Below are positions 10,267-10,532 of a stretch of DNA of 64,000 bases, piece after piece. Below the pieces are notes generated by a model that did not search any database, had not been told where the DNA came from, and saw nothing but the letters and a program-made list of their open reading frames with translations. Numbering within the stretch: the stretch's first letter is position 1; each line of letters starts with the position of its first letter. A program made the position numbers and the translations under genes. The DNA comes from the human T2T-CHM13v2.0 reference genome, Homo sapiens. The stretch is from NCBI RefSeq assembly GCF_009914755.1, contig NC_060936.1; one strand, 5' to 3'.

Positions 10267-10306
10267 CACACACACACACACACACACACACACACACACA
10301 CACACA
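10267..10306. repeat. (CA)20 microsatellite
   Basis: Direct read; (UG)20 in RBM19 pre-mRNA. Confidence 0.98.
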
Positions 10307-10480
10307 GTGATCACAGGAAGGAGATGCACAAAGTGCTACTGGTTTATTTCTGGAGGATGGCACTAGAGATGGTCGTCATTTCAACCTGTCACTGCTAGCA
10401 CTTTGTACCGCTTCCACTCTGAAGGAACAGCATTTTAGGGAGAGGAAGAGCAGATGTGAAGTTGTGAGTTAGCAAGGGAT

Positions 10481-10532
10481 GTGTGTGTGTGTGTGTGTGT
10501 GTGTGTGTGTGTGTGTGTGTGTGTGTGTGTGT
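10481..10532. repeat. (GT)26 microsatellite
   Basis: Direct read; (AC)26 in RBM19 pre-mRNA. Confidence 0.98.

What the first reader, a model, noticed from the sequence alone, without database searches (positions are those of the whole stretch)
10267..10532. Complete hidden last exon enclosed by complementary (CA)26 and (UG)20 arms in intron 16
Seen, reading the pre-mRNA direction: (AC)26 at 10532-10481; branch-point matches CUAAC (10472-10468) and CUAAA (about 10438); an AG-free pyrimidine-rich stretch ending UGUUCCUUCAG| (AG 10420-10419); an exon that, joined to exon 16 (phase 1), reads EWKRYKVLAVTG-stop (UGA 10383-10381); AAUAAA at 10348-10343; then (UG)20 starting 36 nt later, where a GU-rich downstream poly(A) element belongs. 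The two arms could form a 40-bp stem looping out the 174-nt cassette. Established: TDP-43 binds UG repeats and represses cryptic exons and cryptic polyadenylation (STMN2 is the paradigm); hnRNP L binds CA repeats. Inference: a switch controlled by protein binding, RNA structure and repeat length, giving a 701-aa RBM19 without RRM5-6 that, as a terminal exon, should escape junction-dependent NMD.
Basis: partly seen in the sequence, partly recalled or inferred. Interest (0 to 1): 0.8.

Follow-up and report, generated by a model that had tools for sequence, protein, structure and literature searches.

The report
Silent decoy exon between CA/UG repeats
Two complementary dinucleotide repeats in an intron of the human RBM19 gene enclose a stretch that looks like a complete last exon, but nothing I could reach shows that it is ever used, so it is most likely a silent decoy.

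Summary
On the minus strand, (AC)26 at 10532-10481 and (UG)20.5 at 10306-10266 are both 100% pure. The 174 nt between them hold an acceptor-like AG (10420-10419), an in-frame stop and AAUAAA (10348-10343). Joining exon 16 to 10418 gives a 701-aa protein. The arms are predicted to form a 41-bp stem, and this holds in a 1.4-kb context.

Nothing shows use. RBM19 has no intron-16 event in the TDP-43-knockdown poly(A) and cryptic-exon tables I could search. It is absent from an hnRNP L cryptic-exon list (2 of 3 files searched) and from a 4,927-event intronic-poly(A) atlas.

The parts are individually common:
- 89 intronic AGs in this gene score at least as well as the candidate.
- 10 of those 89 are followed by AAUAAA.
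- Roughly 290 AC-then-TG pairs exist genome-wide, and the mirror order is as common.

The conjunction is rarer, at about 0.9% of random 174-nt segments, but it was picked after the fact.

Best reading (0.65): a silent pseudo-exon that is triply masked, by hnRNP L, by TDP-43 and by the duplex. Interest is low to moderate.

The parts
10481..10532 (-). (AC)26 arm, the 5' arm in the pre-mRNA. It is a candidate hnRNP L site and ends 8 nt before the CUAAC branch-point match.
   Evidence: sequence. (TRF 10480-10532, 26.5 copies, 100% matches).
10468..10472 (-). CUAAC branch-point-like motif. Its A at 10469 lies 50 nt upstream of the AG.
   Evidence: read directly.
10434..10438 (-). CUAAA, a second and weaker branch-point-like motif.
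   Evidence: read directly.
10419..10420 (-). Acceptor-like AG, preceded by UGUUCCUUC.
   Evidence: It has 14 of 20 and 9 of 12 pyrimidines upstream, C at -3 and a 114-nt AG-free zone. These values lie inside the range of the 19 real RBM19 acceptors in the window.
10381..10418 (-). Coding part of the putative last exon. With the G of exon 16 it reads EWKRYKVLAVTG followed by TGA.
10343..10348 (-). AAUAAA hexamer, 33 nt after the stop codon.
   Evidence: One search counts 17 AATAAA in the 47,757 nt of intronic sequence of this gene within the window.
10266..10306 (-). (UG)20.5 arm, the 3' arm. It starts 36 nt after AAUAAA. It is a candidate TDP-43 site and sits where a GU-rich downstream element would.
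   Evidence: In one search the G+T fraction downstream of this hexamer is 0.82, the highest of the 10 acceptor-plus-AATAAA combinations.
10252..10257 (-). GUAUGU donor-like site directly after the UG arm. With the acceptor at 10418 it would define a 161-nt internal exon that carries the stop codon.
   Evidence: It matches 5 of 7 scored consensus positions, within the range 3-7 of the real donors. Its hexamer is the same as in the real donors at 41918 and 36990.
10328..10406 (-). 11-nt perfect inverted repeat inside the cassette (10406-10396 with 10338-10328). It would place the stop codon and AAUAAA in a loop and the expected cleavage zone in a stem.
   Evidence: In one search, 51 of 2967 random intronic 174-nt segments (1.7%) have an inverted repeat at least as long.
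18877..19006 (-). Exon 16 with donor CAG|GUAAGA, the upstream partner of the proposed junction.
   Evidence: (6 of 7 consensus positions).
8901..9076 (-). Exon 17, the normal partner of exon 16. Its acceptor has the weakest pyrimidine tract of the 19 real acceptors.
   Evidence: 5 of 12 pyrimidines.

Best explanation
The region is a silent pseudo-exon. Two pure dinucleotide microsatellites in opposite orientation sit 174 bp apart in RBM19 intron 16. The unique sequence between them happens to carry an acceptor-like site, an early in-frame stop and AAUAAA.

In the pre-mRNA the decoy is probably masked in three redundant ways. All three are inferred, none is shown.
1. hnRNP L binds the (CA)26 tract, which abuts the branch-point region.
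2. TDP-43 binds the (UG)20 tract. About 3 molecules would fit, at 5.5-5.9 dinucleotides per site. The tract occupies the place where a GU-rich downstream poly(A) element would recruit cleavage factors.
3. If either protein is absent, the two arms pair into a 41-bp duplex. The duplex sequesters the UG tract and loops the cassette out.

Because the complementary arm can replace TDP-43 as a mask, loss of TDP-43 alone need not activate the site. Exon 16 therefore splices to exon 17, and no 701-aa isoform is made at a meaningful level.

Shown: the sequence features, the reading frame, the predicted duplex, and the absence from the searched catalogues. Inferred: protein occupancy, duplex formation in cells, and silence of the site.
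For: The parts are common.
- Of 3882 intronic AGs on the gene strand, 89 score at least as well as the candidate on four crude acceptor features. Ten of those 89 (8 distinct hexamers) have AATAAA 30-300 nt downstream.
- Pairs of (AC)>=8 then (TG)>=8 at a 100-300 nt gap gave 2596 sliding matches. There were 11 distinct loci in the first 100 rows, so roughly 290 loci genome-wide. The mirror order gave 2894 matches, so this arrangement is not specially enriched.
- From the anchored counts of 34,282 and 34,829 runs, uniform placement predicts about 77 such pairs. For arms of >=17 units (11,420 and 11,438 runs) it predicts about 8.
- The cassette is single-copy in the genome. On its own it is not unusually structured: z = -0.88, and 38 of 200 shuffles fold as well.

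No sign of use was found.
- No paper in the library holds RBM19 together with 'cryptic exon' and TDP-43.
- In the TDP-43-knockdown poly(A) table, the two RBM19 rows I read lie at the gene's 3' end, hg38 113.807-113.823 Mb. That is over 100 kb from the candidate, which I place at about hg38 113.9286 Mb by coordinate offset. The file holds four RBM19 mentions and I did not read the other two. No coordinate beginning 113927, 113928 or 113929 occurs in those six supplement files, nor in the 12 files of PMC12126230.
- RBM19 occurs 0 times in the cryptic-exon supplement of PMC12667841.
- It occurs 0 times in 2 of 3 files of the hnRNP L cryptic-exon paper.
- It occurs 0 times in the held file of the atlas of 4,927 intronic poly(A) events.
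- PMC12586192 lists RBM19 as 'ALS no'.

The duplex is predicted robustly. McClory et al. state that most introns hold pseudoexons with all the right motifs that are never used (PMC5959245, Introduction).
Against: The conjunction is not trivial. Only 379 of 42,004 random 174-nt intronic segments (0.9%) hold an equally good acceptor followed by AATAAA. With arms this long, well under one such locus is expected genome-wide.

The candidate acceptor is as good as the real ones. It is transcribed before the weakest real acceptor of the gene, that of exon 17.

The layout, with a UG tract just downstream of the poly(A) signal, is exactly what is reported for TDP-43-repressed cryptic last exons.

The negative catalogues are weak evidence:
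- the poly(A) pipeline needs assembled transcripts above 1 TPM;
- some files were cut when stored;
- one file was not searched;
- no junction compendium, 3'-end database or CLIP track could be queried.
Confidence: 0.65

Rival explanations
1. The cassette is a latent alternative last exon, kept off by TDP-43 on the UG arm, hnRNP L on the CA arm, and/or the duplex. It is switched on when these are lost or when repeat length changes. The product is an NMD-immune mRNA for a 701-aa RBM19 that lacks the last two RNA-recognition motifs.
For: All the needed motifs are present, in the right order and at the right spacing. The G+T-richest downstream region of the 10 acceptor-plus-AATAAA combinations is this one. 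The published binding map of cryptic last exons shows TDP-43 at the acceptor and downstream of the cryptic poly(A) site (PMC12586162, passages). Pseudoexons flanked by dinucleotide repeats and repressed by the cognate proteins are a described class (PMC5959245, Introduction). The conjunction is uncommon by chance, at 0.9%.
Against: No RBM19 intron-16 event was found in any searched table from TDP-43 knockdown, hnRNP L knockdown or 3'-end sequencing. The complementary arm should re-mask the UG tract once TDP-43 is gone (inference). hnRNP L-repressed cryptic exons use exonic CA repeats near the 5' splice site (abstract), which is not this geometry. A biological role for the truncated protein has no support at all.
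Confidence: 0.15
2. The cassette is a latent internal 'poison' exon rather than a last exon. The acceptor at 10418 would pair with the GUAUGU donor at 10257, directly after the UG repeat. This gives a 161-nt exon with a premature stop, so any transcript that includes it is degraded by NMD and hard to see.
For: The donor-like site matches 5 of 7 scored positions, inside the range of the real donors (3-7). It has the same hexamer as two real donors of this gene. A UG repeat inside or beside the exon is the usual anatomy of TDP-43 cryptic exons (PMC5959245, Introduction).
Against: The base at -1 is U, not G. The exon would contain AAUAAA and a 41-nt UG run. RBM19 is absent from the cryptic-exon supplement of PMC12667841. 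The NMD-inhibition study PMC12262666 was seen only in a search listing; its tables were not searched.
Confidence: 0.07
3. The functional unit, if there is one, is the 41-bp AC:UG duplex itself and the exon-like content is incidental. The duplex could be an ADAR or other dsRNA-protein substrate, or a structural element that compacts intron 16 in the manner of the fish (AC)m-(GT)n introns.
For: The duplex is the strongest predicted structure in 1.4 kb. No other pure dinucleotide array in intron 16 competes for pairing. AC/GU pairing is proven to act in splicing in fish (PMC4691745, passages).
Against: In fish the arms lie within about 200 nt of the 5' and 3' splice sites of the same intron. Here they lie about 8.3 kb and 1.2 kb from the real sites. 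The authors report that the class was lost in humans. AC-then-TG pairs are no commoner than the mirror order genome-wide. Rfam gives only a sub-threshold mir-297 match, 31 bits against a gathering score of 90.
Confidence: 0.05

Closest known systems
TDP-43-repressed cryptic alternative last exons (the STMN2 exon 2a type; catalogued in PMC12586162)
   Same: An unannotated intronic acceptor plus a poly(A) signal, with a UG-rich TDP-43 motif downstream of the poly(A) signal. The predicted outcome is a truncated mRNA that ends inside an intron.
   Different: No inclusion after TDP-43 loss is on record for this site. The UG tract here is a long pure repeat with a perfectly complementary CA partner 174 nt upstream, which could mask it without TDP-43.
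hnRNP L-repressed CA-repeat cryptic exons (McClory, Lynch and Ling 2018, PMC5959245)
   Same: A CA dinucleotide repeat next to a pseudoexon. The general idea is that dinucleotide-repeat-binding proteins police pseudoexons.
   Different: [quoted passage not shown] Here the repeat is intronic and upstream of the branch point. RBM19 is not in the 2 of 3 supplement files searched.
(AC)m-(GT)n structured introns of fish and lamprey (Lin et al. 2016, PMC4691745)
   Same: Complementary AC and GU runs in one intron, predicted to form a long hairpin. AC comes first and GU second.
   Different: The fish arms hug the 5' and 3' splice sites and bridge them. Here they enclose a pseudo-exon deep in a 9.8-kb intron. 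The fish study found AC/GT pairing across exons to be depleted and the class to be lost in humans.
Ordinary intronic pseudoexons and decoy splice sites
   Same: All the motifs are present and no use is recorded. In this gene alone, 89 comparable decoy acceptors occur in 47.8 kb of intron.
   Different: It is flanked by an unusually long, pure, complementary repeat pair.

Membership tests
TDP-43-repressed cryptic last exon | UG-rich TDP-43 binding motif at the acceptor or downstream of the poly(A) site | tested here: met
   (UG)20.5 at 10306-10266, 36 nt after AAUAAA. The positional rule is from PMC12586162.
TDP-43-repressed cryptic last exon | Usable 3' splice site and poly(A) signal in an intron | tested here: inconclusive
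   The crude features lie within the range of the real acceptors, and a canonical AAUAAA is present. No trained splice-site or poly(A) model was available.
TDP-43-repressed cryptic last exon | Appears or rises when TDP-43 is depleted | tested here: not met
   No intron-16 event for RBM19 was found in the supplements of PMC12586162, PMC12126230 and PMC12667841. This is only a catalogue look-up. The tables use thresholds and some files were cut when stored.
TDP-43-repressed cryptic last exon | TDP-43 crosslinking at the site | not testable with these tools
   No CLIP tracks were available.
hnRNP L-repressed cryptic exon | Exonic CA repeat, particularly near the 5' splice site | tested here: not met
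   The CA repeat is intronic, 61-113 nt upstream of the acceptor. The rule is from the abstract.
hnRNP L-repressed cryptic exon | Inclusion on hnRNP L knockdown | tested here: inconclusive
   RBM19 is absent from the 2 of 3 supplement files that could be searched.
(AC)m-(GT)n bridged intron | AC run within about 200 nt after a 5' splice site and GT run just before the 3' splice site of the same intron | tested here: not met
   The arms lie about 8.3 kb from the exon 16 donor (18877) and about 1.2 kb from the exon 17 acceptor (9076).
(AC)m-(GT)n bridged intron | Arms predicted to pair into a dominant hairpin | tested here: met
   A 41-bp stem appears in both the minimum-energy and centroid structures, in the 301-nt and 1401-nt contexts.
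Expressed intronic polyadenylation isoform | 3'-end sequencing cluster at the site | tested here: not met
   RBM19 is absent from the one held supplement file of the 4,927-event atlas. PolyASite and PolyA_DB could not be queried.

The most novel reading that the evidence does not exclude
A human intron carries a three-state gate on a cryptic terminal exon. The UG arm can be held by TDP-43, the CA arm can be held by hnRNP L, or the two arms can pair with each other. Only combined loss of protein binding and of pairing would release an NMD-immune mRNA for an RBM19 that lacks its last two RNA-recognition motifs. One route to that would be contraction of one polymorphic repeat. This would make microsatellite length a heritable dial on a ribosome-biogenesis factor, and it would be the first mammalian use of AC:UG pairing to police an exon.
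Probability: 0.04. Interest if true: 0.7.

Novelty: new member of a known kind. Interest (0 to 1): 0.25.

Why it matters
If the site were used, it would add RBM19 to the list of genes truncated by cryptic polyadenylation. RBM19 is an essential nucleolar protein needed for pre-rRNA processing (recalled, not from a call).

It would also give a natural test case for how RNA duplex formation competes with TDP-43 and hnRNP L on dinucleotide repeats, with repeat length as a built-in genetic variable.

As things stand, it mainly shows that a complete-looking exon can be assembled from common motifs. It also shows that a complementary partner repeat may explain why some long UG tracts do not behave as TDP-43-dependent sites.

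Tried and rejected
I shortened it to 16+16 in the same tool. Pairs with both arms of >=20 units could therefore only be estimated from single-arm counts, not counted.
- Is the cassette a repeat-family member or a retrocopy fragment? The only match in the genome is the cassette itself.
- Is the whole unit an inverted duplication or foldback element? Complementarity extends only 4 bases (UGCA) beyond the arms, and the spacer has no overall symmetry. I rejected this idea. An origin by an inversion with one breakpoint in a longer CA repeat cannot be tested without outgroup genomes.
- Is the hairpin a known RNA family? Only a sub-threshold mir-297 match driven by the repeat was found, plus Alu-derived matches next door.
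- Is the cassette's own fold special? No, z = -0.88.
- Literature searches for RBM19 with TDP-43, 'cryptic exon', 'cryptic' and 'polyadenylation' returned nothing about this intron. The one splicing paper I opened (PMC3961179, one passage) only names RBM19 in a gene list.
- The search was too broad to be useful.
- PMC13558559 does not discuss CA partners of UG repeats: 0 hits for 'AC repeat', 'CA repeat', 'duplex' and 'complementary'.
- No vertebrate genomes, RNA-seq junction compendia, 3'-end databases, CLIP tracks or trained splice or poly(A) predictors were available.
- Supplements I could not see may bear on the claim: bioRxiv files, file 3 of PMC5959245, the cut parts of files 1 and 4 of PMC12126230, and any PDF tables.

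Full report
**What is there**

The window is human chr12 (T2T) and the gene is RBM19, on the minus strand. In the pre-mRNA direction, intron 16 (window 18876-9077) contains the following features.

- A 100% pure (AC)26 at 10532-10481.
- CUAAC at 10472-10468 and CUAAA at 10438-10434.
- A pyrimidine-rich run ending UGUUCCUUCAG, with the AG at 10420-10419.
- AAUAAA at 10348-10343.
- A 100% pure (UG)20.5 at 10306-10266, starting 36 nt after the hexamer.

Exon 16 ends with G at 18877, followed by GUAAGA. The coding sequence up to that point is 2068 nt, which is phase 1. Joining it to 10418 gives ...PETEWKRYKVLAVTG-stop, 701 aa, with TGA at 10383-10381.

In the translation printed, I read four RNP-type motifs before residue 689 and a fifth, in exon 17, after it. 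That RBM19 has six RNA-recognition motifs is recalled, not tested.

**The duplex**

Folded as RNA, the 301 nt around the feature give a 41-bp AC:UG stem in both the minimum-energy and the centroid structures. The energy is -122.4 kcal/mol, z = -6.2, and 0 of 100 dinucleotide-preserving shuffles fold as well. The same stem persists when 1401 nt are folded.

TRF finds no other pure dinucleotide array in intron 16. Elsewhere in the window it finds only one impure CA array, at 33383-33424. The two arms are therefore each other's only obvious partners.

Complementarity extends just 4 bases beyond the arms. The 174-nt spacer alone is not unusually structured: z = -0.88, and 38 of 200 shuffles fold as well. 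The spacer is single-copy in the genome.

**How unusual is it?**

The acceptor-like site has these properties:

- 14 of 20 and 9 of 12 pyrimidines upstream;
- C at -3;
- a 114-nt AG-free zone.

These values fall inside the range of the 19 real RBM19 acceptors in the window. They are better than those of the exon 17 acceptor, which is the weakest at 5 of 12.

Such sites are nonetheless common. Of 3882 intronic AGs in 47,757 nt, 89 do at least as well on all four features. Ten of those 89 (8 distinct hexamers) have AATAAA 30-300 nt downstream. The candidate stands out among them only by its G+T-rich downstream region, at 0.82.

Genome-wide, the pattern (AC)8, gap of 100-300, (TG)8 gave 2596 sliding matches. 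There were 11 distinct loci in the first 100 rows, which extrapolates to roughly 290 loci. The mirror order gave 2894 matches.

Anchored run counts are 34,282 and 34,829 for >=8 units, and 11,420 and 11,438 for >=17 units. Under uniform placement these predict about 77 and about 8 pairs respectively. Observed pairs are thus a few-fold clustered, but AC-then-TG is not favoured over TG-then-AC.

Only 379 of 42,004 random 174-nt intronic segments (0.9%) contain an equally good acceptor followed at least 30 nt later by AATAAA. The conjunction of long arms and exon-like content is therefore a rare coincidence, with well under one such locus expected genome-wide for arms this long. It was, however, noticed after the fact, among many patterns that a reader might have flagged.

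**Is it used?**

I could not query junction, 3'-end or CLIP resources. The literature and supplements I could reach give no sign of use.

- No paper in the library combines RBM19, 'cryptic exon' and TDP-43. Searches pairing RBM19 with TDP-43, 'cryptic' or 'polyadenylation' return nothing on this intron.
- In the poly(A) compendium of TDP-43 knockdowns (PMC12586162; supplement file 2 part 183 read, passages of the main text read), the two RBM19 rows I read describe a shift among last exons at hg38 113.807-113.823 Mb. This is the gene's normal 3' end. The file holds four RBM19 mentions and I did not read the other two.
- By the offset between the two assemblies, the candidate lies near hg38 113.9286 Mb. 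No coordinate beginning 113927, 113928 or 113929 occurs in that paper's six files, nor in the twelve files of PMC12126230. The RBM19 rows shown from PMC12126230 concern annotated 3' UTRs.
- RBM19 is absent from the cryptic-exon supplement of PMC12667841.
- It is absent from 2 of 3 files of the hnRNP L cryptic-exon paper.
- It is absent from the held file of the 4,927-event intronic poly(A) atlas (PMC5928244).
- PMC12586192 lists it as 'ALS no'.

These are thresholded catalogues. For example, the poly(A) pipeline requires assembled transcripts above 1 TPM. They argue against strong use, not against rare use.

**Mechanism**

Three facts are established in print.

- hnRNP L binds CA repeats (PMC5959245 Introduction; PMC4947485).
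- TDP-43 binds UG repeats with a site size of about 5.5-5.9 dinucleotides (PMC13558559, Discussion passage).
- TDP-43 is enriched at the acceptor and downstream of the poly(A) site of cryptic last exons (PMC12586162).

My inference is that the decoy is masked redundantly. hnRNP L sits against the branch-point region. About three TDP-43 molecules sit where a downstream element would be. The AC:UG duplex takes over whenever the arms are free. The duplex is far more stable than the alternatives, and it would hide the UG tract from cleavage factors even without TDP-43. This would explain why the site does not appear in the TDP-43-knockdown lists.

That hnRNP L bound just upstream of a 3' splice site interferes with its recognition is recalled (Heiner et al. 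2010), not read here.

A rival anatomy is an internal 161-nt poison exon that uses the GUAUGU at 10257, right after the UG arm.

**Comparison with known systems**

The feature works like the described class of pseudoexons that are flanked by dinucleotide repeats and policed by TDP-43 or hnRNP L. Membership in that class is not shown. The defining feature, inclusion on depletion, was looked for and not found. The hnRNP L class also uses exonic CA repeats near the 5' splice site.

The AC:UG hairpin resembles the fish (AC)m-(GT)n introns (PMC4691745, passages). It fails their positional definition, and that class is reported as lost in humans.

**Verdict**

The most likely reading is a silent decoy between two chance microsatellites (0.65). 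The regulated-switch reading is possible but unsupported (about 0.15). Interest is 0.25.

Noticed in passing
outside the window (hg38 chr12:113,806,945-113,823,321, the 3' end of RBM19): RBM19 does show a TDP-43-dependent shift at its normal 3' end. In SK-N-DZ knockdown, two 'Complex' last-exon groups change usage by about 0.135 in opposite directions (adjusted P about 0.02). A DaPars table shows a change in 3' UTR site usage for NM_016196.4.
   Followed up: partly
window 8901-9076 (-), acceptor at 9076: The exon 17 acceptor has the weakest pyrimidine tract of the 19 real acceptors in the window (5 of 12; gauggggguucag), with a 73-nt AG-free zone. It is the site that any decoy in intron 16 would compete with.
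   Followed up: no
window 10406-10396 and 10338-10328 (-): An 11-nt perfect inverted repeat lies inside the cassette. It would put the stop codon and AAUAAA in a loop and the expected cleavage zone in a stem. Of 2967 random intronic segments, 51 (1.7%) have an inverted repeat at least as long.
   Followed up: yes
window 9904-10232 (+): An Alu on the plus strand gives Rfam SRP and mir-1268 sub-threshold matches. Its A-rich (AAC)n tail ends 33 nt from the (AC)20 array. It is antisense in the RBM19 pre-mRNA.
   Followed up: no
window 10235-10305 (-): A sub-threshold Rfam match to mir-297 (31 bits against a gathering score of 90), driven by the UG repeat. mir-297-type hairpins are themselves derived from TG/CA repeats (recalled).
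   Followed up: no
window 10566-10571 and about 10236 (-): A weak donor-like GCAG|GUCUAG lies about 35 nt upstream of the AC arm. An AG after uuuucucauaaaugugcag lies about 30 nt downstream of the UG arm. Together with the arms these mimic the layout of a fish-type (AC)m-(GT)n mini-intron. They were read by eye only.
   Followed up: no
window 33383-33424 (+), 23406-23586, 20262-20368: Other tandem arrays in RBM19 introns: an impure (CA)21 that reads UG-rich in the pre-mRNA, an (ATCC)n tract of about 180 bp, and a 35-bp minisatellite with 3 copies.
   Followed up: no
supplement of PMC12586192: RBM19 appears in a list of ALS-associated genes marked 'no' for a poly(A) change. This implies a reported ALS association near the gene. 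I did not check its source.
   Followed up: no
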